Below, in pieces: positions 35,218 to 51,933 of a stretch of DNA of 64,000 bases. The stretch comes from Promethearchaeota archaeon (GTDB lineage: Archaea > Asgardarchaeota > Lokiarchaeia > Sigyniarchaeales > SOKP01). A model generated the notes under the pieces. That model saw nothing but the letters and a program-made list of their open reading frames with translations. It made no database searches and was not told the origin of the DNA. Both the position numbers and the translations under genes were made by a program. The stretch's first letter is position 1. The number at the start of each line of letters is the position of its first letter. The DNA is taken from positions 1 to 64,000 of the forward strand of contig JAFGOA010000063.1 in the NCBI GenBank assembly GCA_016926735.1, in the 5' to 3' direction.

Positions 35218-36909
35218 ATGTGTGCACAACTAGGTGGACAACCTATTTTTATTATGAAAGAAGGCACTGAAAGAACTCGAGGAAAAGACGCTATGCAAAA
35301 TAACATCGCAGCAGCTAAAGTCATCGCTGAAGCGGTACGAACGTCGCTCGGACCACGAGGTATGGACAAAATGCTCGTAGATCAATTCGGAGATGTCGTC
35401 ATTACAAATGATGGCGCAACAATCTTAAAAGAAATTGATGTACAACATCCTGCCGCTAAAATGATGGTCGAGGTCGCTAAAACTCAAGACTCCGAAGTTG
35501 GCGATGGTACAACAACAAGTGTTATTCTTGCGGGGGAATTCTTAAAAAGAGCTGAAAAATTACTCGAACAAAAAATTCACCCTACTGTTATCGTCGAAGG
35601 GTTCAGAAAAGCCAGTGAAAAAGCTATCGAAATACTCGAAAGCATATCCGTACAAAGCGGAATTGATGATCATAAAGGTTTAAAAAATGCTGCTATGACT
35701 TGCATGTCTTCTAAAATCGTATCTGAAAGCAAAGAAATGCTTGCTGAATTATGCATTGATGCGATTACAGCAGTCGCAGAACAAAATGAAAATGGAGAAT
35801 GGGTTGCTGATATTGATAAAATCCAAATCCAAAAAAAACAAGGCGAAATGATTGATGATACCAAATTAATTAAAGGTATTATCCTCGATAAAGAAGTCGT
35901 CAGCCCTGGAATGCCTAAAACTATAAAAGACGCAAAAGTACTCCTTTTACAATCTGCTCTCGAAATTGAAAAAACTGAATTCGACTCTAAATTACAAATT
36001 ACAAGCCCAGATCAAATACAAGCTTTCCTTGATGAAGAAGAAAAAATGCTCAAAACTATGGCTGATAAAATTGAAGCCGTAGGAGCTAATGTCGTCATAT
36101 GCCAAAAAGGTATCGATGATATGGTACAACACTTCTTAACAAAAGCAGGTATCATGGCTGTAAGAAGAGTGAAAAAATCCGATCTCGAAAAATTAGCCCA
36201 AGCAACTGGAGGTAAATTACTCAATGGTCTTGATGATATCACTCCTGAATCCCTCGGAAATGCTGGACTTGTCGAAGAAAGAAAAATCATGGGAGATTCA
36301 TGGTTATTCATTGAAGAATGCACTAACCCTAAATCTGTTGTTATCTTAATCAGAGGAGGAACTGAATTGGTCATTGATGAAGTTGAAAGAGCCATTCACG
36401 ATGCACTCTGTGTTGTAAGAGATGTCGTAGAAGACCAAAAACTCGTCGGTGGTGGAGGTGCTCCTGAATTAGAAACTGCTGTTCAATTAAGAAAATATGC
36501 ATCAACCCTTGGTGGACGTGAACAACTTGCTGTTGAGGTTTTTGCTGATAGCCTTGATATAATTCCAAAAACACTCGCAGAAAATGCCGGACTTGACCAA
36601 ATTGACATTCTCATGAAATTAAGAGCTGCTCACCAAAAAGGTAATGTTTTCGCTGGATTCAATCTCGAAAATGGTGAAATCCAGAATAACATGACCGATG
36701 TTAATGTAGCTGAACCTACTGTTGTAAAAATTCAAGCTATTAAATCAGCCACAGAGGCATGCTCTATGATTTTGCGCATCGATGATGTAATTGCAGGAGT
36801 TAAAAGCTCTTCTGCTGATATGCCTCCAGGTGGAATGCCTCCAGGTATGGGTGGTATGGGAGGTATGGGCGGTATGCCTGGCATGGGCGGATATCCGGGA
36901 ATGATGTAA
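35218..36909 (+). CDS. thsA: Thermosome (group II chaperonin) subunit
   Basis: [42 protein letters not shown]-repeat tail. Confidence 0.97.
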
Positions 36910-37075
36910 TAAAATCAAAAACAAATTTTATTTCTTTTTTTATTTTAACATATTTGAAGAATTTTTATATTTTTTTAAGTCCCTCAAATCCATTTTTATT
37001 TTAGTTTATATATTTTTTTCAGAAAAAATTATCGATTAAAAATTTAAAATCTCTGAATATATAGTTCTAAAAAAA

Positions 37076-38914
37076 ATGGAAAAAGAACAAGAAAGACCTT
37101 ATGGATATATATATAAAGTAATAAATTGCATTAATGGAAAAGTGTACATAGGTCAAACGGTTAGTAGTCGTTGGTCTGCAAATAAAATTCCTATTGAAGA
37201 AAGATGGAATGAGGAAATTAGAGAAGCATATAATAAGTATAGAAATGGAAAATCACTTCGTTATATTGAAAGAGCTATTATTAAATATGGACCTGAAAAT
37301 ATGAATCTTTTTGAACAAGATATAGCATATAAAAATCAAAAAGAGCTGGATGATAAGGAGATTTTTTGGGTAAAAGAGTGCAAATCATCTAATAAAGAGT
37401 TTGGATATAATTCAACTGAGGGTGGAATGGGAGGAAAATTAAATGATGATGTAAAGGAAAAATTAAGTCAGATTAGTAAAGAATTTTGGAGTGATCCAGA
37501 ATACCGTGAAAAATTAACTCAGATTAATAGAGAAAGATGGAATGATCCAGAATATAGAGAAAAAGTCATCCAAGGTATGAAAGAGAGTTGGACTGATGAA
37601 CGAATAGAGAAAAAACGGGAAGAATTATTAGAAAAATGGCAAGATCCAGATTTTAGAAAACTAAGAACAGAAATAAATAGAGAAATTGGTCAAAGACCAG
37701 AATTTAAAGAAAAAATAAGCGAAATTTCTAAAGAGCTTTGGCAAGATCCAGATTATCGAGAAAAACAATGTAAGATAAATAAAGAGCGTTGGCAAGATCC
37801 AGAATTTCGAGAAAAACAGATAAATGAAAGAATACAACGGCAAAAAGATCCAGAATATCGAGAAAGAGTAAGTAATACAATGAAAAAAGTTTGGGAAGAT
37901 CCTAAATATAGAAAGAAGCAAAGTAAAATAAATCGAGAGAGATGGGAAGACCCAGAATATAAAGAAAAACAAAGAAAAATAATAAAAAAAAGATGGCAAG
38001 ATCCAGAATTTAGAGATAAATCTATAAAAATAAGACAAGAATATGGTAATACACCTGAATATAAGGAAAAAATGAGTGATATTGTTAAGGAACGTTGGAA
38101 AGACAATGAGTATCAAGAAAAAGTAAGGAAAGGTATGGAAAAAAAATGGCAAGATCCAAAATATCAAGATAAAATGAGTAAAATTCATAAAAATAAATGG
38201 AATGATCCAGAATATCGAGAAAAACAATTAAAAGCAAGACAACAAAAAAGAAAAGAAATTCCTGATAAATATCAATTTTTTAAAGATATTTTAAATATGA
38301 AATATAAAGATATTTCTTCCAAATATAAAATGGGCAGTACCGCCTTTACCAAGAGAATTAAGGAGACCCTAGGTGATTTTGGAGGTAAGAACTACACAAC
38401 AGCAAAGGAAATTTTAAAGGACAAAGATCTTGATGAGTTTATAAAGCAAATCGAAAATAAAGATAAAAAGATTAAAGCTCAAGATCAATCCAAAGAAAAG
38501 AATTCTAAAATTCAAGAGGATAAGAATTTTAAAGAAAAAGGTAAAGAGAAAGAAAAGAAGACAGAATCGATCCAAGATTCTAAAGAGAAACTCCAAAAAG
38601 TTGAAAAACGCTCTGATTCTAAATCTTCGATGAGCAAAGACTTGAAGCATCTAACCACCAGACCTCCTCGAAAGCGACCATTAATACAAGATTTTTTATT
38701 CATTAAACCCCCAGAGAAAAAAAGTGATTTTTTAGGGATAACAATGGCTTCAAAACCTCACAAAGATGATCTGAGAGGACTAATTCTAAATCGAGATAAG
38801 AAAGGAGATGATCTTAAGCGATTACAAATCACTAGTGAAAAATCTCAACCTAAGAATCCTGATATTATTCTAGCAGATAAAATAAAGAAAAAGCGTAAGA
38901 CTCATGAATTATAA
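37076..38914 (+). CDS. GIY-YIG homing-endonuclease-like protein with 15 tandem 17-aa W.DPEYREK repeats, HTH-like segment and charged tail
   Basis: GYIYKVINCINGKVYIGQT..RW..AIIKYG..ELDDKE..GYNSTEGG; repeats counted directly. Confidence 0.85.
   Translation: MEKEQERPYGYIYKVINCINGKVYIGQTVSSRWSANKIPIEERWNEEIREAYNKYRNGKSLRYIERAIIKYGPENMNLFEQDIAYKNQKELDDKEIFWVKECKSSNKEFGYNSTEGGMGGKLNDDVKEKLSQISKEFWSDPEYREKLTQINRERWNDPEYREKVIQGMKESWTDERIEKKREELLEKWQDPDFRKLRTEINREIGQRPEFKEKISEISKELWQDPDYREKQCKINKERWQDPEFREKQINERIQRQKDPEYRERVSNTMKKVWEDPKYRKKQSKINRERWEDPEYKEKQRKIIKKRWQDPEFRDKSIKIRQEYGNTPEYKEKMSDIVKERWKDNEYQEKVRKGMEKKWQDPKYQDKMSKIHKNKWNDPEYREKQLKARQQKRKEIPDKYQFFKDILNMKYKDISSKYKMGSTAFTKRIKETLGDFGGKNYTTAKEILKDKDLDEFIKQIENKDKKIKAQDQSKEKNSKIQEDKNFKEKGKEKEKKTESIQDSKEKLQKVEKRSDSKSSMSKDLKHLTTRPPRKRPLIQDFLFIKPPEKKSDFLGITMASKPHKDDLRGLILNRDKKGDDLKRLQITSEKSQPKNPDIILADKIKKKRKTHEL
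37487..38248 (+). repeat. 15 tandem ~51-bp coding repeats (tggcaagatccagaatatcgagaaaaa core)
   Basis: 14 units of 17 aa and one of 16 aa. Confidence 0.9.
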
Positions 38915-39004: not shown

Positions 39005-41000
39005 ATGAATGATCCTCAAGAGCCATTAATTTGGCAGACAAGAATTAAAATAACCCAAGCACCTCATACTCTCGAGGAAAAAAAATTACCTAATATAACA
39101 TCTCAAGATGATTATTATGCATTACAACCAGTAGACAAGTTAGATACATTTTTGATGGACCCTTTTGGATTTCTAAACCGACAATCATATGGAATTGAAT
39201 TAACTTCAGAGAAAAAGATAAATTGGGTTTTCTATACCAAAGCTGAATCTAAACAAAAGGCATTCGAAAGGGGGTATACTTGGTTATCAGAATTAAAATA
39301 TCAATTCAAAGGATTGGATGGAATAGTAAGTGCTAAACCGATCTATTTGGGCGAATTTTTAGGAAAATCCAACCTAAATATTCATAATTGGAGTAGAATA
39401 CAAGAGATCACAATTCCAAAAGGGATTTTGAAGTATAAGATCAATATTCTTGAGAAATTCATCACCATTTTTTACCTTTAATCAAGCTCAAGCGCGAGAA
39501 ATCAAATTGTACTTAATTTGGTGTAAACTTCCCCCACGAGAAGATGAGCATCTTCATAAAAACACATTATATCTGTTTCGAATCTTTATCATATATAATA
39601 AAAAGAATTTAGATGAAGAGGATCTTTTGAAGATAAGAGGAAATATTGAATTTTTATGTGCTAATTTAGAGGATTTAAATGCGAAAAAATCAAGATTAAA
39701 ATATCCTAAAGATATCCAGTTCCATAATCTTTTATCTGGAGAAGTCTTTTCGGAAATAAAGGATAGATATTCTAAGAGCATATTGGATGAGAGTATTAAT
39801 TTCACATTTCCAACAAGCTTACCTTTACCGAGATTACCTATTTTAAAACATGATAATGTAAGATATATTGACCTCGATGATAAATTTATAGATGATGCCA
39901 TCCCACTTGGATATCATCTTAAAGATGGAGTGATAACAACCCATATTACTTATATCCCAATTAATAAATTTTCCCAAGATTGTGTAATATTTGGCAAATC
40001 TGGGAGTGGAAAAACCTATTTTCTCGCTAATTTAGTACATGAATTTTATAAAAAAACTAAAGATCGACGTTTAGGTATCCTTATTCTCAATGTAGCTAAG
40101 GAAAACCAAGAGATCTTCTATCAAGATTTTTTGATTCTAAAATATTCGGATGCTGATTTTAAAATTCCCTATTTTTTTAGTGATGATACAAATAAACTTG
40201 AAAAGCACCTACAAGAAACTGCTACTTATATCTGTGCCTCCTTAGGATTGAAGAATGTTTTTGAAAAGATAATTTATCGCTCTATGGTTGGGATAATTCG
40301 TTTAGAGGGGCATCTACCAAAGAATTTTTACGAATTATTGGAGCTAGTTGAAAATTATATGAATATTAATTCCTATGGTCCAGAGGAACAAGCTAATCTT
40401 ATGCAAGCATTTCGTAATCGAAAGAATGTATTTGAAGAAGAAAAAATCCAAGATGTTTTAAATCTTTCAGAAGAGATTCCTGAATGGTTGAATGATTGGA
40501 TGAATGGTAAGAATATTTATCTTGATTTATCAGTATGTAGCAAATTCATAAAATTGTTAGTTGTAAATGCAATATTCCAACTTATTAGGGTAATAACAAA
40601 AGATATTGAATCTGATGAATTAAGAAACCTCATAATCATTGATGAGGCTCATGTAATTCTTGAAAAACCTATAACTAATAATAGTGATGATGCTGATTTT
40701 ATCATGAAAGAACAAATGTCTAAAATCTTCTCTGAATTGTTGAAGGAATATAGAAGTCGGGGTGTGGGTTTTATTATTGTTGATCAATCACCTGAGCGTC
40801 TATTTGAAGATGTTTCTTCTCAACCAAGTATTAAATTCCTTTTACGTTTGGATTATCCTAATAATCTCTTATTTTCCGAAGATCCTGAAGAAAGACAAAT
40901 GCTTTCTCAATTAGAAAATCGCTTATTATTAGTAAATAATGGAACAACGGGTGAAAAATTTCTATTAAAGACTCCAAATCTATATAAATCAAACTATTAA
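39005..41000 (+). CDS. HerA/FtsK/VirB4-type ATPase (DUF87-like), split by a frameshift near 39467-39473
   Basis: ORFs 39005-39481 and 39450-41000 join (..KFITIF/TFNQAQ..) if one T is removed from a T6 run; Walker A GKSGSGKT, Walker B IIIDEAH, KEYRSRGVG, DQSP. Confidence 0.8.
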
Positions 41001-41248
41001 ATCTCAATATCATTAATTGAAAACAACTTAAATTAAAATTATATAGGTAATTTCTAAATTTTCATATCCCAATTATATACAACAACAAATAGAATATGAT
41101 TATTGTTGATCTTAAAAAATCTGGAAAATGGTAATAAATAAATAAGAGTTTGAGTATTAGAAATTTGGACGAATTAATGCATAAAAACTAAATAAAGTTG
41201 TTTTTTTCAACCAATAAAGACAAAAATTAAAAAAGAGGTATTCAAACT

Positions 41249-42007
41249 ATTAATTTCACAAAAGGAAATTATTGGTTTAAGTGGGATTTTCATTGTCATA
41301 TGCCTGATGATCCAAATTGGAGTTTTTCTTCATCTTCACCTATATCTAAAAAAGATTTTGCAAAGAAATTTATAAATAAAGCTAAAGAGAATGAATTTGA
41401 ACTTATAGCTATAACTGATCATTTTAATTATCAAGATTATAAAGATAGTTATATGGCTTATATATATAACAGTGTAAAAAAAGAAATCTTAAAAATTATT
41501 CTTGGATGAGAGATAACTGCTAGGGAGGGACGTAAAGGCATTCATATCCTTGTGCTTTTCTCAGATAAAATCTCTAATAATTCAAATGAATTATTTGATA
41601 TTATTGGCAGAATAATGAATAAATCACATTCAGCTCGCAATGAAACAAGAAGCAGGGATATTCCTATATCCAAAAATAATATTGAAGAGATTTATAATAC
41701 TCTTAATGAACAGTTACCATCTAATCATTTTTTAATTATTTTCGCACATGTAGATAGTAACAAAGGGATACTTAATCAACATGATCTAGAAGGAACTTTA
41801 AGAAAAGAAAAATGGAATAAATCTAAAATAAAAGTAGCTCAATGGACAAAAGATTCTTTTTCTTATAGTTCTGGAATTTTAGATAATATTGGAAAGAATA
41901 TCAGTAATGACTATCAGAAAAAAATCCATGATGTAGGTTTTGATTGTAAAATGGTAGTTTTTGATTTTAATAATATGAATTTGTTATTATTGATATTTAG
42001 CTCATAA
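41249..42007 (+). pseudogene. PHP-domain N-terminus of a TrlF/Ppl-type PHP-ATPase; in-frame TGA and C-terminal truncation
   Basis: (ATT)NFTKGNYWFKWDFHCHMP...IAITDHFN...ILG*EIT...GIHILVLF...FAHVDSNKG; the two track ORFs share one frame across TGA 41507-09; no SDxH motif or ATPase follows. Confidence 0.75.
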
Positions 42008-42674
42008 GATATTGAGAATGATAATGAGATAATTGTGTTTTATCTTCTGGTTTAAGCCATAATTCATAAGCTAAAATATATCCGATATGATCTCTAAATT
42101 TTTTATCAAGATCTTCTATTATAGAATTATGTTCAATAACATTCATTAATTCATCTGCATATGATTCAACTTCATGTTTAACTATATTATATTCCTTTCC
42201 ATAATCGAGTTTTCTACTTTTTTCTAAAACACGTTTTATCAAATCATCTAATTGTACTATTTTATCATTCATTATATATCTAAAAATATCTGCATCCTTT
42301 TTTAGATTAAATCTCCTCAATAAAGATATTGTTTTTTCTATAAATAAGGGAGAAATTACATAATCTTTAAGTATTTTTTCTCCCGCCATCTTATGTCGTA
42401 GTATAACTAATTTTTGCTTTAGTTCATAAAAATCTTTTAAATTATTTTTATAATTGTTAATAACTCTACTTATATATAAGATAAGTGGAATTAAAATAAT
42501 AGCTAAATCTAAGCAAATTTCTGAGAATATTATATGTGCTTTTACATTTTCGCTTCCATGAACAAATATAAATAATATCAAAAAGGAAATCCCTATAGCT
42601 ACAGAGATAAACAATTTAAATAAATACCATGATTTTTCTCCATAATATTTACTTTTTTTAATTTTATTTGACAT
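41997..42674 (-). CDS. Hypothetical protein with 2 N-terminal TM helices and a helical soluble domain
   Basis: Hydrophobic LFISVAIGISFLILFIFV and LAIILIPLILYI. Confidence 0.65.
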   Translation of the reverse strand: MSNKIKKSKYYGEKSWYLFKLFISVAIGISFLILFIFVHGSENVKAHIIFSEICLDLAIILIPLILYISRVINNYKNNLKDFYELKQKLVILRHKMAGEKILKDYVISPLFIEKTISLLRRFNLKKDADIFRYIMNDKIVQLDDLIKRVLEKSRKLDYGKEYNIVKHEVESYADELMNVIEHNSIIEDLDKKFRDHIGYILAYELWLKPEDKTQLSHYHSQYLMS

Positions 42675-43406
42675 ATTATATATTTTGTTTTTAGTAATAA
42701 AATTATTATTAAAAAGAATTATTTTGGATTTAAATTTTTAATTATTTTCTTCTTAATAACAAATATCTTTATTTAAAACAAATATCTAAATAAAATATGT
42801 TTCATAAATTCGTAATATCCTTTCATTCTTATATTTAAATGATTGATAAAGAATTATCAGAAAATATTTCTATGTAATATCATATACTTTTAAATTTTAT
42901 ATCTAAATTCAATACTGTTTATTGTTTTATTTAATGATAATTCAATAGTTAAACACTTGAAAACATCTTAAAAAATCACCGCCTCGATTCAGGAAAAGAT
43001 ATTTATATACATCTACTACGCTGAATCTCAAAATTAAAAAAAATTACGTTCTTAATTTTTGAATTAAAATTCAATCTTAGGCTAAATTTAAGACTAAGAA
43101 TGCCTAATTAATAATTAAATCTTTTAAGATTTTATAATAAAATTGTTTAAGTTTAATAAGAAGCGAGATAAAAGGTTATACTTAGATTATACTTCATAGT
43201 AATTTTATATATAAAATAATAATTTTCACTTTTTTATTTCAATGAACATTGAAATAGTTTGAAGAATCTCAGAAATCTATCTATTTGATTTCTATGAACA
43301 TAAAAAGTAAATATTCTTTTTAAGATATTTTTTAGTCAAAAATATATTAATAATAACGATGATTTCTTCCAAAAAATATTATAATGAAAATAGATATTTT
43401 TAATAG

Positions 43407-44615
43407 ATGGAGTTTAAAAAAGAAATTGATAACATAGATATTGAAAATTATCGAGCAATAGAAAAACTAAGCTTTTCAACAAAAAAAATAAATATTATTG
43501 TAGGTCGAAATAATACGGGAAAAACATCCTTAATGGATGCAATTTATTTAGGATTATTAAATATTAATTCTTTTGAGAATATCAGGAAGAAAGATTTTAA
43601 TTTTCCATTAAATAATCTTATTTATAAGAATAGAAAGCAAGCGAAAATTCTACTTGGGATTAATCATGAAAATAGAAAAATGACTTTTGAAACTATAATA
43701 GATTTTAAGAAACATATTCCAAAAGATCGTGAATTTAGATCTTTTTTATATCGGGAAAGGGAAGAAATTTTAGAAGATGAACTGAATAAAATTAAAGAAA
43801 AAATGAAATCACTTGATATTCCTGTAAATAAAAGAATGTTATTTGAAGAAGATTATGATTTGAGAAAGGCGGAGATTATTAATGATATTGAGATATCTTT
43901 TGATGAATCCTATTCTAACACTTTATTTTTTACATTGTTAATGAATAAAAATCCAATCTCAAAGTATGTATATAATAAAGAATACAAGAATAGATCTTTT
44001 TATTTTGGTCTAAATCCCTTTCAGAATATTGTAATCTATGAACTACTTCATGAACGAGTAAAATTTTTATTTAATATGATAGATCAAAGAAAAGTAAATC
44101 CAAAAGATAATTTTAAGAGAATACTTAATTCAAAAGATATATTTATTTTTTTGGAAGTATTGAAGGATAAATTTCCAAATATATATGACATTCGAAATAT
44201 CGATGACAATGTTAATATTGTTCTCTTAGATAATGATAATGAGAAAATTTTAATTCCTCTTGAATTAATGGGAGATGGTTTTAAATCATTATTATATTCA
44301 TATACGTTATTCTATATTTTTTCAGAAGGAATTTTATTGTTTGAAGAACCTGAAATATCATTACATCCTGGATATATGGAAATATTAGCAGAATTAATAT
44401 TGTCAAACATAAATAATTATCAATTTTTTTTTACAACCCATAGTTTAGATTTTATCGAAGCAATTATAAAGATAGCTAAGAAGGAAGATAAACTAAAATT
44501 TATTCAAATTATTAGACTTACCAATAAAAATGCCGTTGTTGATAGAGAAATTCTAAATGAAAATGAAATTTTAGACGAATTAGAGGAAATTAAAATCGAT
44601 TTAAGAGGGTATTGA
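43407..44615 (+). CDS. ABC-type AAA_15/AAA_21 ATPase (OLD/AbiEii/AriA-like)
   Basis: IENYRAI, GRNNTGKTSL, MGDGF, LLFEEPEISLHP, FFFTTHS. Confidence 0.9.
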   Translation: MEFKKEIDNIDIENYRAIEKLSFSTKKINIIVGRNNTGKTSLMDAIYLGLLNINSFENIRKKDFNFPLNNLIYKNRKQAKILLGINHENRKMTFETIIDFKKHIPKDREFRSFLYREREEILEDELNKIKEKMKSLDIPVNKRMLFEEDYDLRKAEIINDIEISFDESYSNTLFFTLLMNKNPISKYVYNKEYKNRSFYFGLNPFQNIVIYELLHERVKFLFNMIDQRKVNPKDNFKRILNSKDIFIFLEVLKDKFPNIYDIRNIDDNVNIVLLDNDNEKILIPLELMGDGFKSLLYSYTLFYIFSEGILLFEEPEISLHPGYMEILAELILSNINNYQFFFTTHSLDFIEAIIKIAKKEDKLKFIQIIRLTNKNAVVDREILNENEILDELEEIKIDLRGY

Positions 44616-45306
44616 GATTCTTGTAATTTTAGGAGAAGGTAAATTCGATTCTTGGTTTTTTGATGAACTTCTTTCGAATTTATCTCAAGAAAATGAAAAT
44701 ATCTTAAATATAAAAACAGATTATGGAGATAAGTTCAGTAGTTTATTTAATTGTCTTGCGAGGAATTGCACAAAAAATTCTTATTATAAGAGTATTATAT
44801 GGGGTGATAAAGGAAGACAATTTATGTTATTAAAAGTATATCCTAAAGTATTAGGTTTTATTATAAGACATGTGAGGAAAAATTCATTGTTAATCTTATG
44901 TGAAGATAGTGATAATAGAAATACAGAACAACTTTATAATAATTGGAAAGATAATACTGAGAATTTTCTCTTTAATCCTAATAATTTTCAAAAATGTATT
45001 GATTTTAATATTATTTCAAACTCTAATATAAACATAGATATTGGTTCTAATAATTTGTTATCTTCATGTTATCATTATATTCCTAAAAGTTTAGAATATC
45101 AAATCGCATACATCAATATGATAGAAAATAATCTGAATATTCCTAATAATATTCAAAATAACCATCATGATTTTTTAAATAAAGTTGTAGAATTATTAGA
45201 TCAGAATCATGAAACATTAATTAGAAATTCAGTAAATTTACTTAGAGGAAAACAATGGTTAGTTCATATCTCTAATTCTATAATGAATTTTATATCTGAG
45301 ATTTAA
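44611..45306 (+). CDS. TOPRIM-like partner of the ATPase; probable ATT start at 44611 or 44617 (track started at 44824)
   Basis: Open frame from TAA 44602-04: IEILVILGEGKFDSWFF...ILCEDSD...PKSLE; EGxxD and DxD TOPRIM signature; overlaps or abuts the ATPase stop. Confidence 0.7.
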   Translation: MEILVILGEGKFDSWFFDELLSNLSQENENILNIKTDYGDKFSSLFNCLARNCTKNSYYKSIIWGDKGRQFMLLKVYPKVLGFIIRHVRKNSLLILCEDSDNRNTEQLYNNWKDNTENFLFNPNNFQKCIDFNIISNSNINIDIGSNNLLSSCYHYIPKSLEYQIAYINMIENNLNIPNNIQNNHHDFLNKVVELLDQNHETLIRNSVNLLRGKQWLVHISNSIMNFISEI

Positions 45307-45714
45307 TCAATAAAGCTTTTCAATTGATATTAAAATTTTATTATTTTATACTTGTATAGTTATAATTCAAATAAAAGTCTAAAACATAGTTCTATATATT
45401 CTAAGAAAAATAATATTTGCTTCTTTTCAGTGATATTTCAAATTAATATAAATTGGTTGTTATAAAAACTACTAAAATAATATAATTATGTGATTTCTGT
45501 TGACATGGAGGGTAAATTTAAGTTTTTAAATAATTGTTAAGATTGTTATAAGAACTATAAAGGTATAGAGGACTTTAATTTTATAAATTTCTTTTATCAT
45601 GGATATTAAAATTCTTTAATAAACAATATAATAGAATATATTGAATTTTATATGATAATCAAAAATTATAAAAATACAGAATTTTTATTATTAATTAAAC
45701 ACTAAAAATTTACT

Positions 45715-45765
45715 TTTTTAAAAGAGGTTTTTTTGTCTTTTTAAAAAGGGATCTTTTGTCTTATT
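45715..45765 (+). promoter_or_regulatory. Imperfect tandem direct repeat upstream of the wHTH operon
   Basis: ttttaaaagaggtttttttgtctt followed by tttaaaaagggatcttttgtctt. Confidence 0.4.
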
Positions 45766-45781
45766 TTAAATTTAAAAGTAG

Positions 45782-46204
45782 GTGATTAAAATAGAAGTAA
45801 ACCAGTCAGATGATGTAAATTCAAAAATATTAGATATGGGTGTGTTAGAAGAATTATTTGTTAGTGATAAAACGGCACGAACAATTGAATTCTTTATTCT
45901 TCATGAAAAATGGATTCAGAATAAAAAAGAATTAATGGAAATTTTAGATATCTATCCTGAAGCTATGAAAGAGATATTAGAAAGATTAGTAAAATTAGAC
46001 ATAATTGAGGTCGATAAAAAGATAGCAAGTTCAAAATTCTATAAAGTTAATAAAAAATCAAATTTAATAATACCATTAAGAACTTTAATTCATAATTTAA
46101 GTTTAAATAGAGCATTATTGATGATAGACGAGAATAAAAATGTTATAAAAGAAAAAGAATTAGAATCAAACATAAGGAGTTATGTAAATCAAGATGATGA
46201 ATAA
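45782..46204 (+). CDS. Winged-HTH protein (ArsR-like)
   Basis: LEELF.S...ARTIEFF...KELMEILDI....KEILERLVKLDII......SKFYKVN. Confidence 0.75.
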   Translation: MIKIEVNQSDDVNSKILDMGVLEELFVSDKTARTIEFFILHEKWIQNKKELMEILDIYPEAMKEILERLVKLDIIEVDKKIASSKFYKVNKKSNLIIPLRTLIHNLSLNRALLMIDENKNVIKEKELESNIRSYVNQDDE

Positions 46205-46892
46205 AGATAATTTTAATAATCTTTTTATAATTCAGGAAATTGGGAATTTTCCTACAATTATAAAAAGAAAGGATGAATTACTAAGAGAAATTGAGGAAGA
46301 AAGGAGTTATAATCTTTTATCAAGAGAAAATTTTTCAATTAAAGATTTAGATAATTTAAATAAATATATAAAAATAAATAATTTAGAAAAAAAAGAGATC
46401 TTTGAAGATCTAACAGAATCTGAATCTGAATTTATTGGTTTTATTTTAAAAGATAGAATAAAAAAAGAACTGAGAATTAAAATCAGAATCGATCTTGGAA
46501 AATATCATATATTTATTTTCCCTGAATGCCCCTCAAATTTAGTATATCGAAGTTTTTTATTACTAACATCTGACTTAGAAACATTTGAAAAAGATTTAAT
46601 AGATTATTTAGGTTTTAAAGAAAAAACAAAAGACTTTACATTTCTTCAAACAAAAAAAATTATTCATTTGTATATGAAAATCAAAAATGAAAATGAAATT
46701 ATAGATAAATTTCTGAACACATTTGCAAGTAAAGAAAGATTCCAAAATATTATTATACTCAATAATAAACTTTCTAAAGATAGTAGACGTATTTTAATAG
46801 GAGAAAAAACAAATTATCTTTCAAGTATAGGAAATATTTTTGATTTAGACTATATATTGAATATTAAAGAATATTTAAGAAGATTTATTTAG
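46194..46892 (+). CDS. Hypothetical protein
   Basis: 232 aa, overlaps the upstream gene by 11 nt; no motif recognised. Confidence 0.65.
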   Translation: MMNKDNFNNLFIIQEIGNFPTIIKRKDELLREIEEERSYNLLSRENFSIKDLDNLNKYIKINNLEKKEIFEDLTESESEFIGFILKDRIKKELRIKIRIDLGKYHIFIFPECPSNLVYRSFLLLTSDLETFEKDLIDYLGFKEKTKDFTFLQTKKIIHLYMKIKNENEIIDKFLNTFASKERFQNIIILNNKLSKDSRRILIGEKTNYLSSIGNIFDLDYILNIKEYLRRFI

Positions 46893-46894
46893 AG

Positions 46895-47239
46895 GTGTTA
46901 GATATTTCTGATTGTAAGTTAAATTTTTATGATTTTTTTTTACTTCGAAAAATAACAACATATAAATACATAGGAGGGCACAAAACTAAATTGTCTCATA
47001 TTGTACGAGGTATAGAAAGAAGTGATGTAGGATATGTAAAAAGGGCTTTTAAAAAATTTCTGAAAATGGGTTTTTTTGAATCAGAAATGAGAAATAGAGA
47101 TTATTATTTTTCATTAAAAAGAGAATATATTAAACGTGTTTTTGAATTAATAGAGAAAAATAGTTGTCCCTATTGTTCAGATTATTTAAAAAAAAAAGAT
47201 TTTTGTAATTATTGTAAAAAAGAAATTTCACAAGAATAA
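46895..47239 (+). CDS. Small wHTH protein with C-terminal zinc ribbon
   Basis: YIGGHKT...VKRAFKKFLKMGF...YYFSL; CPYC..CNYC. Confidence 0.7.
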   Translation: MLDISDCKLNFYDFFLLRKITTYKYIGGHKTKLSHIVRGIERSDVGYVKRAFKKFLKMGFFESEMRNRDYYFSLKREYIKRVFELIEKNSCPYCSDYLKKKDFCNYCKKEISQE

Positions 47240-47270
47240 TATATATCATAACCTTTTTTATATATTAAAG

Positions 47271-47870
47271 ATGTCATCAGAAGGCAATTTTAAAACACTA
47301 AGATTATTTGTTGAGAAAAGTCTCGCAAAAAAGATATTACTTACTCGATATTTAGAATTTATTTTAATTAGTTTTCTCGAATTAAAGAATTTAGAAATAA
47401 TAAAAATACGTCCATTTTATAAGACTTTTATAATTATATTTTTTCGGAATTTTATACAAAATGATAACCTAAAGCAGAATTTAAATAAATTTCTTATCGA
47501 TAATCCTATGATGGATAAATTCTTAAAAGAAAATAATATGGATTATTCAATACTTATTTTGGATTTTGAATATGAATTTAATTTTTGTGAAGAATTTCTT
47601 GGTGAAGATAATATTACTTTTAATTCAAAAGTTTTTTTATCTAAATTAAACGATTATATTGAGCAAAATCGCCAGGAAGTAAGACATTTAATAAATTTTC
47701 GTGATATTTTGGCTGAAAAAATAGAGTACGTAGGAAAATGTATTATTTGCGAAAAAAAGACACTATATAAATGTAAGAAATGTAACCAAAGCACGTGTGA
47801 AAATCATTTAAATAAAGGTTATTGTGATAATTGTGCTGATAAAATATTGGAAGAATATGATTCAAAATAA
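47271..47870 (+). CDS. Hypothetical protein with C-terminal binuclear zinc finger (HIT/AN1-like)
   Basis: CIIC-x7-CKKC-x4-CENH-x5-CDNC. Confidence 0.7.
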   Translation: MSSEGNFKTLRLFVEKSLAKKILLTRYLEFILISFLELKNLEIIKIRPFYKTFIIIFFRNFIQNDNLKQNLNKFLIDNPMMDKFLKENNMDYSILILDFEYEFNFCEEFLGEDNITFNSKVFLSKLNDYIEQNRQEVRHLINFRDILAEKIEYVGKCIICEKKTLYKCKKCNQSTCENHLNKGYCDNCADKILEEYDSK

Positions 47871-47922
47871 TTTTTTGTATCAACTTATCGAATAACCTGA
47901 TCATAATAAGATTAGTAATAAA

Positions 47923-49419
47923 TTATAGAAAAATAGTAATTTTATCCTGAATAATCCTTTTTAATTTTTTAGATACTCTTTCATTATTAATCGTTTTATC
48001 AATATAGCCAAGAAAAAATCTTTTTCTCTGTTTTAAGATCTTTTCATTTTTTTTTGTATTTTTAAATTTATTGTCAAATTTCTTTCTATCTAAACTTCGA
48101 AGAAATTCTTTTTTTTTTAAAAAACTATCAAATTGATAATAAAATAAAAGTGATATTCTCGCGCATTGTAAAATCTGTTTTGTAATTAATTTTAGTTCTT
48201 CTCCATTTGTATTAATTATAGAACCATGGCTATAAGCATTTCTAATTTTATAAGCCTTATTTACTATATTATAAATACTTAGAGATTTGAATCCTAATAT
48301 TTGAAATATTTTTGAAATTCTTTGACTTAATTTTCGATTTAATTCACCAACATCTTCTGAAAATAAAGCTTCTAAACATGAAATTGCATAAGTAATTTGA
48401 GATTCAAATGATTCAATACTTATAAATGAGTTTAAATATCTACTAAAAGCTATTTTAATAAATGTCTTTTCTTTTGTAAAAATAGTTTCTCTTGTCTCAG
48501 TTTTATTAAAAATTGAAATAATTTGATTTAATTTAGGAATATCTTCATTATATAGAGTATAAACATAATTACGCCTAATATTAAGGAGGGGATTTTCATG
48601 TGTTATTAATCCTACATCAAATTCAAAATGAGAATTAGAATATCCATATCCCCCTATAAATGTAAGACCCCCCGCCAATACATTTGTAGGAATTATAGTT
48701 CTTCGTGTAAATACAGAACCAAATCTAAAGAAAATTAAAGATAAATAAATTATTCTTAAATATTGTAATATTTCTTCTTGTACTTTTTTTGAATTTAATG
48801 AGTTAATTTCAATAGGATAATTCCAAATTAAAACAGAATAGGGAAAATTCTTACAAGGTAAACCTCTAAAATTAAACTTAATATCCGTAGAGATAGTATT
48901 TTCAAAATCGGAAGGTTTTACTCTTCTTATTTTAAGATCTTTTGATAATTTTAATTTTAAGTTATTTATCCAAACACCTTCCAAAAACATTTTTATTTTT
49001 ATATAATAGAATTTTGGATCATTAGTCCAAATAGTCCAATTATCTATATATTTTTGTAATTTCTCTTTATTTGATTTCTTATTATATTTTCTTATTATTT
49101 CAATTAAAAATCCTTTTAATAGCAAATTTGATTTCTCTATGTCGAAATTTTGGTTTTTTTCAAATAATTCTAATATATCTTTATATTCTGAAAGTAAAAT
49201 TAGTTTATCTAGAAGAGGTTTATCAATTATAATTTTCTTTTTTTCTTCAATATCACTTTCTTCAAAATCATATTTTATTTCTCTATTTTTAAAATCTAAA
49301 GTTGATAAATTAGGTATGTAATAGTTCTTATATTTCAAATCTATACTATCTAATTCTTTAAATATTGAATTTGATAATCTTTCAAGTAATTTTATTAACT
49401 CAATCTTATTGAATATCAT
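47923..49419 (-). CDS. ApeA-like HEPN domain protein
   Basis: ISCLEALF..ELNRKLSQRI..AYKIRNAYSHG (Rx4H). Confidence 0.8.
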   Translation of the reverse strand: MIFNKIELIKLLERLSNSIFKELDSIDLKYKNYYIPNLSTLDFKNREIKYDFEESDIEEKKKIIIDKPLLDKLILLSEYKDILELFEKNQNFDIEKSNLLLKGFLIEIIRKYNKKSNKEKLQKYIDNWTIWTNDPKFYYIKIKMFLEGVWINNLKLKLSKDLKIRRVKPSDFENTISTDIKFNFRGLPCKNFPYSVLIWNYPIEINSLNSKKVQEEILQYLRIIYLSLIFFRFGSVFTRRTIIPTNVLAGGLTFIGGYGYSNSHFEFDVGLITHENPLLNIRRNYVYTLYNEDIPKLNQIISIFNKTETRETIFTKEKTFIKIAFSRYLNSFISIESFESQITYAISCLEALFSEDVGELNRKLSQRISKIFQILGFKSLSIYNIVNKAYKIRNAYSHGSIINTNGEELKLITKQILQCARISLLFYYQFDSFLKKKEFLRSLDRKKFDNKFKNTKKNEKILKQRKRFFLGYIDKTINNERVSKKLKRIIQDKITIFL

Positions 49420-49533
49420 ATTTTTTATCCTTTTGTTATTTTTGAGTTAATATCTAATAACTTTTATTGATTTATAACCTTTTTCTCTTGAATCTTTACT
49501 ATATTAAATAAGAATTTGAAATAAAGATTTTAT

Positions 49534-51030
49534 ATGAAATCTCTTCCTTTTTTATATTTAAAACAAATATTCAAGATGAATATGGTAAAAAATAAAGATT
49601 GGTTATTTGAATTAATTAATCTATATCGAAATGATGTTAAAACTCCCACCGATATAAATGGTTTTGAACTAAATACTGGATTTGACTTAAGGCCACCATT
49701 ACAAATATCTATTTTATGGTTCGAAAGTGAGATAAATAATATTCAATTTTTTTTAATTAGTCATTCTAAAGAGTTCCCAGATAAACAGATTAATATTTTT
49801 GGACCATTTAAAATCCAGAATAAAATAGATATCGAAAATTTTGAAACTATTTTAAATACAGAAAAATTATTTAAACATATTAAAGATGACCAAAATGAAA
49901 ATCTTATTGATGATCTAAAGGAAAGATTGTTTAAAATCACACAAAATAATATTAAGCTTTTGGCAAATGAACCAAGAAATGCCTTTGGTAATAGTGGTGT
50001 ATTTTATGATATGTGTCATTATATAATATATGAGGGGAATATATTTAATAATTCTATAACCAAGATTATTCAAGCTTTTCATAAAACTAAAGAAATTAGT
50101 AGAAATTTATATATTATGCATAAAGAACTACCTCTAAAATATGAAATGATACCATTTTTTGCTGGATATATTCTTCCTCCTATATGGTTTGGAGAGTATC
50201 CAAAATTATCTATCACAGATAACCTAAAAGGTAAAAAACTAAGAGGATTTATCAAGAGGATTTACGAAGGGGAGATCGCTGGAAAAAAAATTATTATTGA
50301 GAATGATGGATATATGGGGATTGCTATAAATGATAATAGAGATGGACAATTCGAAAATAAGGAATTATATGATACAATTAAAATTCTAAATTTTTTTTTT
50401 GGTATTATCCTTCTTAAAGGATATAAAATTCAATCTATTCAAACAAGTGACTTTTCATATACAACCTATTTACCTAAGTCAGGTTACTTTACACAAACTT
50501 ATAGAAACCATTCGAAATCAGAAAAACTATTTAAAGAAAGAAATGAAAATTTAAAAATAAAAGAATTTATAAAAGCAAGAAATAAAATCTCTACAGATGA
50601 GCTAAAAAAAATAATAGATAATACTAATAAATTAATTCAATATGATAAAATCATAGATTTATTAGGTATATTCATTCAATCATATTCTAATTTATCTAAA
50701 AATGAGATTATTCAATCTTTTATCTTAAGTTGGACATTAATTGAAGAATATCTTAATTATATATGGGAATCTTTGTTAGAAGGGAAAAACATTTCCAATA
50801 GTAAAAGAATAGATAAGCTTAAAGGAAGAGATTTTACAGCGAGTATTATATCCGAAATATTAAATATAACAGGAAATATAGATAATAATGAACTAAAAAT
50901 CTTAAATCGATTGCGGAAGAAGCGAAATGCTTTTATGCATGATCTAAAACCTATAAATTATAAAATAGCAGTAGAATCTTTTGATTTAGCGTTAAACTAT
51001 TTGCAAAAAAGAATAAAAAAATTATTATAA
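49534..51030 (+). CDS. HEPN domain protein
   Basis: SFILSWTLIEEYL...LNRLRKKRNAFMHDL (Rx4H); true start may be a downstream ATG. Confidence 0.75.
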   Translation: MKSLPFLYLKQIFKMNMVKNKDWLFELINLYRNDVKTPTDINGFELNTGFDLRPPLQISILWFESEINNIQFFLISHSKEFPDKQINIFGPFKIQNKIDIENFETILNTEKLFKHIKDDQNENLIDDLKERLFKITQNNIKLLANEPRNAFGNSGVFYDMCHYIIYEGNIFNNSITKIIQAFHKTKEISRNLYIMHKELPLKYEMIPFFAGYILPPIWFGEYPKLSITDNLKGKKLRGFIKRIYEGEIAGKKIIIENDGYMGIAINDNRDGQFENKELYDTIKILNFFFGIILLKGYKIQSIQTSDFSYTTYLPKSGYFTQTYRNHSKSEKLFKERNENLKIKEFIKARNKISTDELKKIIDNTNKLIQYDKIIDLLGIFIQSYSNLSKNEIIQSFILSWTLIEEYLNYIWESLLEGKNISNSKRIDKLKGRDFTASIISEILNITGNIDNNELKILNRLRKKRNAFMHDLKPINYKIAVESFDLALNYLQKRIKKLL

Positions 51031-51868: not shown

Positions 51869-51933
51869 TCTTTAAAAGATTTTAAATAAAAAAACCAATA
51901 AATAAAATAAAAATATATGAATCCCGATTCTAA

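What the first reader, a model, noticed from the sequence alone, without database searches (positions are those of the whole stretch)
37076..38914. GIY-YIG nuclease with a 15 x 17-aa repeat array: candidate modular DNA-recognition nuclease
Seen: a GIY-YIG domain is followed by 15 near-regular units. Their first half is conserved (W-x-D-P-E-Y-R-E-K) and their second half varies; positions 13-14 read IN, GM, LL, IN, IS, IN, ER, TM, IN, II, IR, IV, GM, IH, AR. Units 5, 8 and 12 replace W with G/Q/G. An HTH-like segment (YKDISSKYKMGSTAFTKRIKE) follows. Known: I-TevI-type GIY-YIG enzymes use strings of small modules such as NUMOD3 to read long targets. Inference: this long array may wrap DNA, with repeat number and variable residues setting specificity (loosely TALE/PPR-like), or act as a ruler between HTH and nuclease. 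The gene is free-standing, directly after the thermosome gene at the island edge.
Basis: partly seen in the sequence, partly recalled or inferred. Interest (0 to 1): 0.8.

Follow-up and report, generated by a model that had tools for sequence, protein, structure and literature searches.

The report
Homing-type nuclease with long NUMOD3-like array
This archaeal gene encodes a selfish-type DNA-cutting enzyme whose DNA-holding arm is an unusually long string of 16 short helices, an unnamed but very widespread cousin of a known DNA-binding motif, and it sits beside the chaperonin gene at the edge of a defence island.

Summary
ORF 37076-38914 (612 aa) has an I-TevI-type GIY-YIG domain, 15 W-x-D-P-E-Y-R-E-K units of 17 aa (plus one S-capped unit before them), one HTH module and a basic tail. 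The repeat is not new to nature. It is an unnamed variant of the NUMOD3 minor-groove helix of homing endonucleases, with the same 17-aa period and register as canonical NUMOD3 arrays. Pfam mislabels it 'GerD'. It occurs in more than 1000 protein clusters fused to GIY-YIG, HNH, Vsr-like, Mom and other DNA enzymes, including T6-type phage Seg genes. A TALE-like code at positions 13-14 is not supported: units are only 39% alike and their whole second half varies. By homology to I-TevI, position 2 would be the base-facing residue. Relatives carry 2-14 units and 1-3 HTH modules, inversely related; this array is the longest seen. The gene is patchy (31 of 400 Asgard genomes). In 22 of 30 loci it lies directly 3' of a thermosome gene, here at the edge of a ~20 kb defence island. 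Cutting, homing and DNA contact are inferred. This scan had already noted such repeats on other DNA. Verdict: new variant of a known kind.

The parts
37076..38914 (+). Whole gene, 612 aa: free-standing GIY-YIG endonuclease with repeat array, HTH module and basic tail
   Evidence: ORF list. It is the only copy in its 3.88 Mb genome.
37100..37429 (+). GIY-YIG catalytic domain (aa 9-118). Y13, Y24, R43, E95 and N112 align with I-TevI Y6, Y17, R27, E75 and N90. E47 stands where I-TevI has H31.
   Evidence: E 9.5e-18 to 1mk0; Z 11.6; Foldseek E 4e-4, TMt 0.84; hhalign 98.2%; invariant columns Y24, G26, R43, E95, N112.
37436..37486 (+). Unit 0 (aa 121-137): first helix of the array, with a NUMOD3-like S/N cap (N-D-D-V-K-E-K-L-S)
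   Evidence: Read from the sequence. Family consensus is S-x-x-x-K-E-x-x-S. AF2 helix H124-139.
37487..38248 (+). 15 W-type units (aa 138-391). Consensus is W-x-D-P-E-Y-R-E-K-h-S-x-I-x-K-E-R. Each unit is one 14-16 residue helix broken at x-D-P. Net charge of aa 121-391 is +15.
   Evidence: periodicity; AF2; register with NUMOD3.
38249..38485 (+). C-terminal HTH-like module (aa 392-470), present in 1-3 copies in relatives
   Evidence: AF2 helices 398-469. VIA Z 4-5.2 to AraC/LuxR/NarL HTH domains. Jackhmmer module counts. Among family members, Pfam FokI_D3 matches 6 of 36 and HTH_24 matches 1.
38486..38911 (+). Basic, K/E-rich tail (aa 471-612, net +17). Its end is conserved in same-genus G002 (..DFLGITMASKPHKDDL..).
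35218..36909 (+). Thermosome (Cpn60/TCP-1) gene, the conserved left neighbour
   Evidence: Pfam E 6.8e-185. A thermosome gene is directly upstream of the nuclease gene in 22 of 30 loci.
36910..37075 (.). 166-nt AT-rich spacer with T-runs and TATA-like TTTATATA strings
   Evidence: Read from the sequence. Signals are not tested.
39005..41000 (+). orf158 plus HerA/DUF87-type ATPase pair (32-nt overlap), the usual right neighbour of the nuclease gene but a separable module
   Evidence: pair intact in 16 of 16 loci; the pair also occurs without the nuclease gene.
39005..59000 (.). ~20 kb low-GC variable island, absent from same-genus G002. It holds an OLD/AbiL-like ATPase at 43407-44615 and a type IIG restriction-modification gene at 51934-54909. 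The nuclease gene lies at its left edge.

Best explanation
The gene encodes a free-standing, I-TevI-type GIY-YIG endonuclease of the homing kind. Its N-terminal domain cuts DNA. The rest of the protein positions it. This consists of 16 consecutive short helices (one S-capped and 15 W-x-D-P-capped units of 17 aa), then one helix-turn-helix module and a basic tail. The 17-aa unit is a sequence variant of the NUMOD3 minor-groove helix of I-TevI, I-BmoI and I-HmuI. The helix core (E-x-R/K-x-K-h-S-E) is kept, and the G-K-x-H-S connector is replaced by W-x-D-P. I infer three things. The array lies along DNA as a rather rigid, net-basic arm that makes mostly backbone or minor-groove contacts (Ser11 corresponds to I-TevI S191, position 2 to H182). 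The HTH module supplies the sequence anchor. Array length sets how far from the anchor the nuclease reaches. Units and HTH modules are gained and lost quickly. The gene behaves as a selfish or accessory element parked 3' of the thermosome gene, at the border between conserved genome and a variable defence island. Shown: domain identities, repeat anatomy, homology to NUMOD3 arrays, distribution and linkage. Inferred: DNA contact, cleavage, homing and the target.
For: Catalytic domain: with catalytic residues present.

Repeat is NUMOD3-related:
- A relative's gene (G061, locus L057) has GIY-YIG followed by at least 8 canonical NUMOD3 units (Pfam hit over cut-off) with the same 17-aa period.
- BLASTP of our array against it gives E 3e-5, gapless over ~9 units, in the register DPEYREK / TQETKEK.
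- 0 of 100 column-permuted and 0 of 100 shuffled controls reach 29.3 bits; their maxima are 23.5 and 23.9.
- NUMOD3 units replace W-type units in register inside single arrays (P0126, P0228, P0242, P0083). P0160 carries intermediate N-P-E-T-R-x-K-I-S units that Pfam calls NUMOD3.
- The G061 gene continues in front of an orf158-herA pair, the same position that W-type genes hold next to that pair.

DNA-targeting role:
- The array query finds 5636, 1076 and 19 representative clusters at E <= 1e-3, 1e-10 and 1e-30.
- Of the 122 of the 150 listed hits that I scanned, 32 carry GIY-YIG-type domains, 9 Mom, 5 Vsr/DUF559/MTES only, 2 HNH, 1 endonuclease I, 1 TnsA-like, 1 sigma-70, 1 SET and 5 NUMOD3 (counted by hand).
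- In small HNH or Vsr-like nucleases the array is the only non-catalytic part.
- Units are net basic, +1.08 per unit over 698 units.
- In P0098 the array sits between GIY-YIG and an I-TevI_DNA-bd HTH.

Rigidity: an 8-unit model has pLDDT 97.4 and pTM 0.64.

Modular turnover:
- 42 family proteins have 2-14 units and 1-3 HTH modules, Spearman -0.60.
- G034 has four identical tandem units.

Selfish or accessory behaviour:
- One copy in its own genome. Found in 13 of 41 and in 31 of 400 genomes.
- Truncated or stop-containing copies exist in G016, G020 and G010.
- A thermosome gene is directly upstream in 22 of 30 loci across 7 genera of 3 families, including the other thermosome paralog in 2 of them.
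- The nuclease tree mixes genera: 12 label changes, minimum 8, shuffled mean 16.3.
- Different cargo occupies the same site in genomes lacking the gene.

Phage relatives are annotated Seg-like or GIY-YIG homing endonucleases.
Against: - Pfam's NUMOD3 model does not match this ORF even at E <= 10. The similarity to NUMOD3 rests on one pairwise comparison with controls plus intermediates.
- No DNA contact, cleavage or homing has been shown.
- No empty-site allele was found. Contigs of four runs gave only weak joints.
- There is no co-conversion signal in the thermosome 3' end, and no nuclease-linked substitutions in thermosome nt 1201-1605 (best p 0.002 among 1620 tests).
- All three same-genus genomes whose orthologous thermosome gene was found carry the gene, so recent inheritance there looks vertical.
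- The residue at the I-TevI H31 position is Glu in this subfamily.
- Neither model found a solved analogue of the array. The best is GerD, at Z 4.8-5.4 with rmsd 5.5-9.1 A.
- The negative unit/module correlation comes from related proteins that are not independent.
Confidence: 0.62

Rival explanations
1. TALE/PPR-like code: each 17-aa unit reads one or a few bases through its variable residues, so the order of units spells the target.
For: The array is regular, long and confidently modelled. Unit number changes quickly and units duplicate in tandem. Position 2 corresponds to the base-contacting H182 of I-TevI and is polar and variable (S N T Q Q Q Q K E E Q N K Q N) between invariant W and D. 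The same array is fused to many effector types.
Against: Units are 39% identical on average, and eight positions vary about equally, so there is no constant scaffold with a hypervariable pair. Proteins at the same chromosomal site have 2-14 units. In I-BmoI the His residues equivalent to H182 tolerate substitution (PMC2853131, passages read). No DNA model could be made.
Confidence: 0.1
2. Passive structural element: the array is a spacer or an oligomerisation rope like GerD (a trimeric helical rope) and does not touch DNA.
For: Pfam GerD scores above its gathering cut-off (36.4 and 45.6 bits against 29.5). The array profile hits the GerD structure 4o8w at E 2e-5 to 2e-4. GerD is the best, though weak, structural match (Z 5.4, rmsd 9.1 A over 108 residues). 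GerD forms a helical trimer (PMC11841064, passage read).
Against: GerD shares only the K-D-P-x-F/Y helix cap; its helices are hydrophobic where ours are charged. The NCBIfam GerD equivalog scores 31.8 bits against a cut-off of 100. The array is net basic. It is the sole non-catalytic part of many small nucleases, and it is interchangeable in register with NUMOD3 DNA-binding units. GIY-YIG homing enzymes are reported to act as monomers (PMC3664794, abstract as shown in the search listing).
Confidence: 0.13
3. Defence effector: the nuclease works with the downstream orf158 plus HerA-type ATPase as a three-gene immune module, and is not a selfish homing gene.
For: The order nuclease gene, orf158, herA recurs in at least 10 genomes of 4 genera. 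Five genomes lacking the nuclease gene also lack the herA ortholog. HerA matches PADLOC HerA and mad8 models. The locus borders a defence island.
Against: The orf158-herA pair occurs without the nuclease gene or the thermosome gene in G041, G235, G253 and G245. The nuclease gene occurs without the herA ortholog in the same-genus genomes G001 and G002 and in others. PADLOC does not match the nuclease or orf158. GIY-YIG with NUMOD-type arrays and an HTH is the hallmark build of homing endonucleases.
Confidence: 0.1
4. Domesticated DNA-binding protein (for example a regulator of the thermosome locus) that has lost or muted its nuclease activity.
For: Linkage to thermosome genes is strong. Inheritance within the genus looks vertical. 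Glu stands at the I-TevI H31 position.
Against: Y13, Y24, R43, E95 and N112 are invariant or nearly invariant in the family alignment. Distribution is patchy and decayed copies exist.
Confidence: 0.05

Closest known systems
I-TevI (phage T4 td intron endonuclease) and I-BmoI: GIY-YIG homing endonucleases with NUMOD3 helices and a C-terminal HTH
   Same: Same order of parts: N-terminal GIY-YIG domain (hhalign 98.2%, VIA Z 11.6), helical NUMOD3-type modules, then a terminal HTH. The helix core E-x-K/R-x-K-I/M-S is shared. I-TevI H182 and S191 map to unit positions 2 and 11 (PMC2853131 and PMC3664794, passages read).
   Different: I-TevI has one NUMOD3 helix and I-BmoI three, plus a linker and a zinc finger. 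Here there are 16 back-to-back helices with 1-2 residue breaks, no zinc finger, and W-x-D-P in place of G-K-x-H-S. Pfam NUMOD3 does not score. The gene is free-standing in an archaeal chromosome, not intron-borne.
Free-standing Seg-type GIY-YIG endonucleases of T-even phages (for example T6 EcT6_00147, T4 SegA-G)
   Same: Free-standing genes placed next to conserved essential genes. The T6 protein carries 4 of the same W/A-x-[DNS]-P-E-Y-R-K units.
   Different: The phage proteins are ~290 aa with 3-4 units. The host here is an Asgard archaeon, the array is four times longer, and the neighbour is a chaperonin gene.
Canonical 17-aa NUMOD3 arrays in related Asgard genomes (G061, locus L057) and repeated DNA-binding modules of phage homing endonuclease genes ('beads on a string', PMC10448857, section 23 read)
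   Same: Same period, same position after GIY-YIG, same neighbourhood in front of orf158-herA. The same idea of repeat gain, loss and shuffling in homing endonuclease DNA-binding regions.
   Different: The cap differs (T-Q-E-T after G-R-x-H against D-P-E-Y after W-x). In the paper the repeated modules are Zn-finger domains joined by linkers, not contiguous helices.
GerD spore germination protein core (PF17898, PDB 4o8w)
   Same: K-D-P-x-F/Y helix-cap repeats at 13-17 aa spacing. Pfam and PDB sequence hits and the best structural match are all to GerD.
   Different: GerD is a hydrophobic, trimeric lipoprotein of Bacillus spores. The NCBIfam equivalog cut-off is not reached. There is no shared context. 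The structural match is weak (rmsd 9.1 A). I treat the Pfam label as an annotation trap.
TALE repeats
   Same: Tandem helical repeats fused naturally or artificially to nucleases; repeat number varies.
   Different: TALE repeats are 33-35 aa, nearly identical, with a two-residue hypervariable loop (recalled, not from a call). Here units are 17 aa, 39% alike and have no such pair.

Membership tests
GIY-YIG homing endonucleases (I-TevI-like, TIGR01453 / PF01541) | GIY-YIG alpha/beta catalytic domain | tested here: met
   The family profile against 1mk0 gives E 9.5e-18. VIA to 1ln0_A gives Z 11.6, rmsd 2.3 A over 91 residues. hhalign to T4 I-TevI gives 98.2%. Pfam PF01541 itself misses this protein but hits 21 of 36 family members. 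TIGR01453 scores 23.2 bits, below its cut-off of 56.
GIY-YIG homing endonucleases (I-TevI-like, TIGR01453 / PF01541) | Catalytic residues (I-TevI Y6, Y17, R27, E75, N90) | tested here: met
   Y13, Y24, R43, E95 and N112 align with them and are invariant or nearly invariant in 36 sequences. E47 replaces H31.
GIY-YIG homing endonucleases (I-TevI-like, TIGR01453 / PF01541) | C-terminal modular DNA-binding region (NUMODs, HTH) | tested here: met
   A NUMOD3-related array and an HTH-like module. Relatives carry NUMOD1, NUMOD3 and I-TevI_DNA-bd.
GIY-YIG homing endonucleases (I-TevI-like, TIGR01453 / PF01541) | Site-specific cleavage of alleles lacking the gene, and homing | not testable with these tools
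   Only indirect signs: patchy distribution, decayed copies and a recurrent site next to thermosome genes. No empty-site allele or co-conversion tract was found.
NUMOD3 (PF07460) | Score at or above the Pfam gathering cut-off (20.4 bits) | tested here: not met
   No NUMOD3 hit at E <= 1 on the protein, nor at E <= 10 on this ORF in the six-frame genome search.
NUMOD3 (PF07460) | Short helix with core [ST/D]-x-E-x-[KR]-x-K-[IML]-S, repeated at ~17 aa | tested here: met
   In-register BLASTP to a canonical array gives E 3e-5, and 0 of 200 controls reach its score. Mixed arrays and intermediates exist.
NUMOD3 (PF07460) | G-K-x-H-[ST] segment before the helix (His = I-TevI H182) | tested here: not met
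   It is replaced by W-x-D-P in 12 of 15 units. Only unit 0 keeps an S/N cap.
NUMOD3 (PF07460) | Binds the DNA minor groove | not testable with these tools
   No protein-DNA prediction was available. Inferred from homology only.
GerD (PF17898 / NF040801) | Pfam gathering score | tested here: met
   36.4 bits (full protein) and 45.6 bits (aa 1-470) against a cut-off of 29.5.
GerD (PF17898 / NF040801) | NCBIfam equivalog cut-off (100 bits) | tested here: not met
   31.8 bits.
GerD (PF17898 / NF040801) | Same fold as the GerD core | tested here: inconclusive
   VIA gives Z 4.8 (49 residues, rmsd 5.5 A) and Z 5.4 (108 residues, rmsd 9.1 A). Foldseek gives E 0.8, TMt 0.34.
TALE-like coded repeats | Near-identical repeats with a hypervariable residue pair | tested here: not met
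   Mean pairwise unit identity is 0.39 (range 0.06-0.71). Positions 2, 10, 11, 12, 14, 15 and 17 all have entropy of 2 bits or more.

The most novel reading that the evidence does not exclude
The W-x-D-P variant of NUMOD3 may be a natural, portable, rigid DNA-tracking array. In this reading each 17-aa helix covers about 2.5-3 bp, and the polar residue between the invariant W and D (position 2, the homolog of the base-reading His182 of I-TevI) reads the minor groove. Unit duplication, loss and shuffling would then retarget a whole toolbox of effectors (GIY-YIG, HNH, Vsr-like, Mom, SET, sigma factor). In Asgard archaea such an enzyme would cut next to thermosome genes and so drive exchange of the adjoining defence island.
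Probability: 0.1. Interest if true: 0.85.

Novelty: new variant of a known kind. Interest (0 to 1): 0.45.

Why it matters
- Annotation. A repeat found in more than 1000 protein clusters, which represent a far larger number of member sequences, of phage, bacterial and archaeal DNA enzymes has no name of its own. It is currently labelled 'GerD', a spore germination protein. Recognising it as a NUMOD3 variant corrects the annotation and gives it a structural and functional frame.
- Natural experiments. This family varies in unit number (2-15 units against 1-3 HTH modules at one chromosomal site). One relative has swapped W-type units for canonical NUMOD3 units. Both make the old question of what NUMOD3 strings do (read, hold or measure) directly testable.
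- Genome dynamics. A homing-type nuclease tied to the thermosome gene at the edge of a variable defence island would extend the 'nuclease genes at boundaries of genetic exchange' picture from phages (PMC10448857) to the chromosomes of Asgard archaea.

Tried and rejected
- Complex prediction (three copies of the array, to test a GerD-like trimer): queue full, then unavailable. Not run.
- Pfam NUMOD3 on this ORF: no hit.
- ESM Atlas on the array: only leads under 0.9 (DUF7167 0.84, a NUMOD3 cluster 0.82).
- Foldseek and VIA on both models: no solved analogue of the array. Long coiled coils align only at rmsd 25-88 A.
- The GerD structure paper (PMC4038265) is not held.
- Sequencing runs: no RNA holder is listed. 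Salt-marsh runs hold short contigs, 90-99% alike, over the thermosome gene, the nuclease gene, orf158 and herA. The skipping joints have sides of only 20-31 letters, so there is no evidence for an empty-site allele.
- Co-conversion: thermosome identity to G000 is not raised near the 3' end in carriers from other genera.
- Nuclease-linked substitutions in thermosome nt 1201-1605: best p 0.002 among 1620 tests, so nothing is significant. 15 carriers and 13 non-carriers were compared; 3 of 31 loci were dropped for incomplete cover.
- Flanking direct or inverted repeats, tRNA genes: only AT-rich chance matches and no tRNA.
- PADLOC: no model matches the nuclease or orf158.
- Literature: searches for DPEYR-type motifs, NUMOD3, 'homing endonuclease + Asgard + GIY-YIG' and 'thermosome + homing endonuclease' found no description of this repeat or of this linkage in the held library. 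Subscription papers, including the original NUMOD paper, are not held.
- Single alpha-helix or coiled-coil reading: rejected, because a Pro every 17 residues and the DSSP breaks interrupt the helix.
Full report
**What is there.** ORF 37076-38914 (+) encodes 612 aa.

- Residues 9-118 are a GIY-YIG domain. Single-sequence tools barely see it: Pfam gives none, TIGR01453 gives 23 bits, and phmmer to 1mk0 gives E 0.27.
- A profile of 36 family members hits the I-TevI catalytic domain at E 9.5e-18, and hhalign to T4 I-TevI gives 98.2% and E 4e-14.
- The AlphaFold2 model (pLDDT 89.8) superposes on 1ln0 with Z 11.6, rmsd 2.3 A over 91 residues.
- Y13, Y24, R43, E95 and N112 align with I-TevI Y6, Y17, R27, E75 and N90 and are invariant or nearly so. 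The enzyme therefore looks active. Glu47 stands where I-TevI has His31.

**The repeat.** Fifteen units start at aa 138, 155, 172, 188, 205, ... 375.

- All are 17 aa except unit 3, which is 16 aa.
- Identity at lag 17 is 94 of 254, against 22.8 +/- 4.4 in 1000 shuffles.
- The DNA copies are old: period 51 nt, 60-74% identity.
- aa 121-137 form one more helix with an S/N cap, so there are 16 helices, exactly as AlphaFold2 draws them. Each is 14-16 residues, broken for 1-2 residues at x-D-P.
- W1, D3, P4, E5, Y6, R7, E8 and K9 are conserved. Positions 10-17 vary, with preferences h10, S11, I13, K15, E16 and R17.
- Units are 39% identical to each other on average. The array carries net charge +15.

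**What the repeat is.** Pfam calls it GerD (36.4 bits against a cut-off of 29.5). The GerD sequence shares only the K-D-P-x-F/Y helix cap and is hydrophobic where our units are charged. The NCBIfam GerD equivalog is far below its cut-off (31.8 bits against 100). Five observations point instead to NUMOD3, the minor-groove helix of I-TevI, I-BmoI and I-HmuI (passages of PMC3664794 and PMC2853131).

1. A related Asgard genome (G061) has a GIY-YIG gene followed by at least 8 canonical NUMOD3 units, over the Pfam cut-off, with the same 17-aa period.
2. BLASTP of our array against that gene gives E 3e-5 with gapless, in-register alignment (D-P-E-Y-R-E-K over T-Q-E-T-K-E-K) across about nine units. 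None of 100 column-permuted or 100 shuffled versions reaches its 29.3 bits; their maxima are 23.5 and 23.9.
3. In single proteins NUMOD3 units replace W-type units in register, and intermediate N-P-E-T-R-x-K-I-S units exist that Pfam scores as NUMOD3.
4. More distant GIY-YIG relatives in the same order carry canonical NUMOD3 directly after the catalytic domain.
5. The G061 gene, which runs off the end of one contig and appears to continue at the start of another, ends in front of an orf158-herA pair. That is the position W-type genes hold next to this pair.

Against membership in the strict sense, the Pfam NUMOD3 model does not score this ORF at all, and the G-K-x-H-S connector is replaced by W-x-D-P. 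I therefore call it a NUMOD3-related variant, not a Pfam NUMOD3 member.

**How widespread it is.**

- The array alone finds 5636 representative clusters at E <= 1e-3, 1076 at E <= 1e-10 and 19 at E <= 1e-30.
- I scanned 122 of the best 150 against Pfam and counted by hand: 32 GIY-YIG-type domains, 9 Mom (most with a Vsr-like MTES_1575 domain), 5 Vsr/DUF559/MTES only, 2 HNH, 1 phage endonuclease I, 1 TnsA-like, 1 sigma-70, 1 SET, 1 cold-shock, 1 HTH_17, 2 ROS/MucR and 5 NUMOD3. The rest had no partner domain.
- An earlier set adds intein-HNH, NUMOD1 and I-TevI_DNA-bd partners.
- In small HNH or Vsr-like nucleases the array is the only non-catalytic region. Across 698 units the mean net charge is +1.08.
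- 57 phage records match, among them T6-type Seg-like genes, Bacillus phage SP-15 and Dickeya phages.
- 181 predicted viral structures match the model at E <= 1e-3, nearly all named GIY-YIG or intron endonucleases.
- Two earlier findings of this scan on other DNA had already called such units NUMOD3-like.

**Code or arm.** A TALE-like code is not supported.

- There is no constant scaffold with a hypervariable pair.
- Proteins at the same site vary from 2 to 14 units.
- Mapping onto I-TevI (H182-S-D-I-T-K-S-K-I-S191, numbering checked) puts the base-contacting His at unit position 2 and the phosphate-contacting Ser at position 11. If any residue reads bases it is therefore position 2 (S N T Q Q Q Q K E E Q N K Q N here), not positions 13-14. 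This is inference by homology.
- In I-BmoI the equivalent His residues tolerate substitution (PMC2853131, passage read).
- An 8-unit sub-array folds with pLDDT 97.4 and pTM 0.64, which speaks for a defined, rather rigid arm.
- No solved structure resembles it. GerD is best at Z 5.4, rmsd 9.1 A; Foldseek finds nothing at E <= 1e-3.
- From the rmsd to straight coiled coils (37-39 A over 140 residues; 83 A over 283) I back-calculate roughly 10 A per unit, about 150 A or 45 bp for the whole array. This is a rough estimate and was not measured on coordinates.

**Family anatomy.**

- The closest relatives are Promethearchaeota proteins, as NCBI names some of them. All share GIY-YIG, then W-type units, then 1-3 copies of a ~75-aa HTH module, then a variable tail.
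- In 42 proteins the units number 2-14 and the modules 1-3, inversely related (Spearman -0.60, p 3e-5; the proteins are kin, so the p-value overstates). The window's protein has the longest array.
- Same-genus G002 has 5 units and 3 modules at the same locus. G034 has four identical tandem units, which is a recent expansion. G014 has no units but several HTH-like repeats.
- The HTH module matches AraC/LuxR/NarL HTH domains weakly (Z 4-5.2). Pfam FokI_D3 matches 6 of 36 members and HTH_24 matches 1.

**Genomic behaviour.**

- The window's own genome has one copy.
- 13 of 41 relatives and 31 of 400 genomes of the phylum have a match, 28 of them among 134 genomes of one family.
- Some copies are truncated or carry stop codons.
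- In 22 of the 30 loci returned (31 genomes matched; one had no locus), a thermosome gene lies directly upstream on the same strand. In 20 of these it is the ortholog (77-100% identity) and in 2 the other paralog (45-50%), in two other families.
- Of the 8 others, one is cut by a contig start, and two lie about 3.8 kb from the paralog.
- Among 20 orthologous thermosome loci of the family, 5 had the gene. What follows the thermosome gene is otherwise not syntenic between genera.
- The nuclease tree clusters only partly by genus: 12 label changes, minimum 8, shuffled mean 16.3. Two genera appear in two separate clades, and branch supports are modest.
- I found no co-conversion tract, no nuclease-linked substitutions and no empty-site allele. 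Within the window's genus, inheritance looks vertical. Homing is therefore inferred from the family, not shown.

**Neighbours.**

- Downstream lie orf158 and a HerA/DUF87 ATPase, a strict pair in 16 of 16 loci.
- This pair follows the nuclease gene in at least 10 genomes, but it also occurs in other contexts, and the nuclease gene occurs without it.
- Comparison with G002 shows that window ~39-59 kb is a ~20 kb island holding the HerA pair, an OLD/AbiL-like ATPase and a type IIG restriction-modification gene.
- The nuclease gene thus marks the border between the conserved chaperonin gene and variable defence cargo. This recalls the 'HEG islands' described for phages (PMC10448857, abstract and section 23 read).

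**Verdict.** The NUMOD3 lead is right, and the TALE-like code is not supported. The protein is a new, extreme member of a known kind (I-TevI/Seg-type GIY-YIG endonucleases). It carries an unnamed, widespread and mis-annotated NUMOD3 variant, and its linkage to thermosome genes in Asgard archaea has not been described in the literature I could search. DNA binding, cleavage, target and homing remain to be shown.

Noticed in passing
window 39005-59000: ~20 kb low-GC island, absent from same-genus genome G002. It holds the orf158+HerA pair, PHP-domain fragments (41300-42007), an AAA_21/OLD-like ATPase (43407-44615; PADLOC PDC-M38A 7e-29, AbiLi, AriA) and a type IIG restriction-modification gene (51934-54909; PADLOC 1e-53). 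No integrase was seen.
   Followed up: partly
window 39005-41000: orf158 (no family; Atlas lead DUF8128 at 0.87) always precedes a HerA/DUF87 ATPase (16 of 16 loci) and overlaps its start by 32 nt. The pair moves as a unit, and in other genomes it sits next to OLD-like ATPase and helicase genes.
   Followed up: partly
window 38486-38911; P0006; L063: C-terminal tails of this nuclease family carry repeated short motifs of the type [KS]-D-[YF]-x-G-I-[DT] (here SDFLGIT, KDDLRGL, GDDLKRL; elsewhere KDYDGID, KDFEGID). Their meaning is unknown; they may be a docking motif.
   Followed up: no
L057 / L125 (G061:C87 end) and L063 / L114 (G061:C65 start): A GIY-YIG gene with at least 8 near-identical canonical NUMOD3 units of 17 aa runs off one contig end. 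It appears to continue at the start of another contig, in front of orf158-herA. This is a natural swap of NUMOD3 for W-type units in the same family.
   Followed up: partly
Pfam PF17898 (GerD) hits on P0026-P0242: The GerD model scores W-type repeats of many nucleases well above its cut-off (for example P0123, 82 bits). GerD labels on phage and archaeal nuclease genes are therefore probably annotation artefacts.
   Followed up: partly
L087, L094, L096 against L088 (genus g11): A ~110-nt stretch just after the thermosome stop codon in nuclease-carrying genomes matches, at 83%, a site 5.8 kb downstream in G013, which lacks the gene. It looks like the 3' end of a convergent gene. Different cargo has entered the same spot in different genomes.
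   Followed up: partly
PDB 4ob1, 9cjx; Pfam NHase_alpha hits: Nitrile hydratase alpha subunits and NHLP leader peptides share the W-x-D-P-E-F-K/R motif with the repeat. This is probably a common helix-capping box rather than homology.
   Followed up: no
own genome G000:C105:1171-1233: A 1338-aa open frame elsewhere in the genome gives the only NUMOD3 hit (sub-threshold: 18.8 bits, E 0.009).
   Followed up: no
L007, L078, L083 (genus g8): In genus g8 the homologous nuclease carries a ~480-aa K/E-rich N-terminal extension. It lies ~3.8 kb from the second thermosome paralog rather than directly after the first.
   Followed up: no
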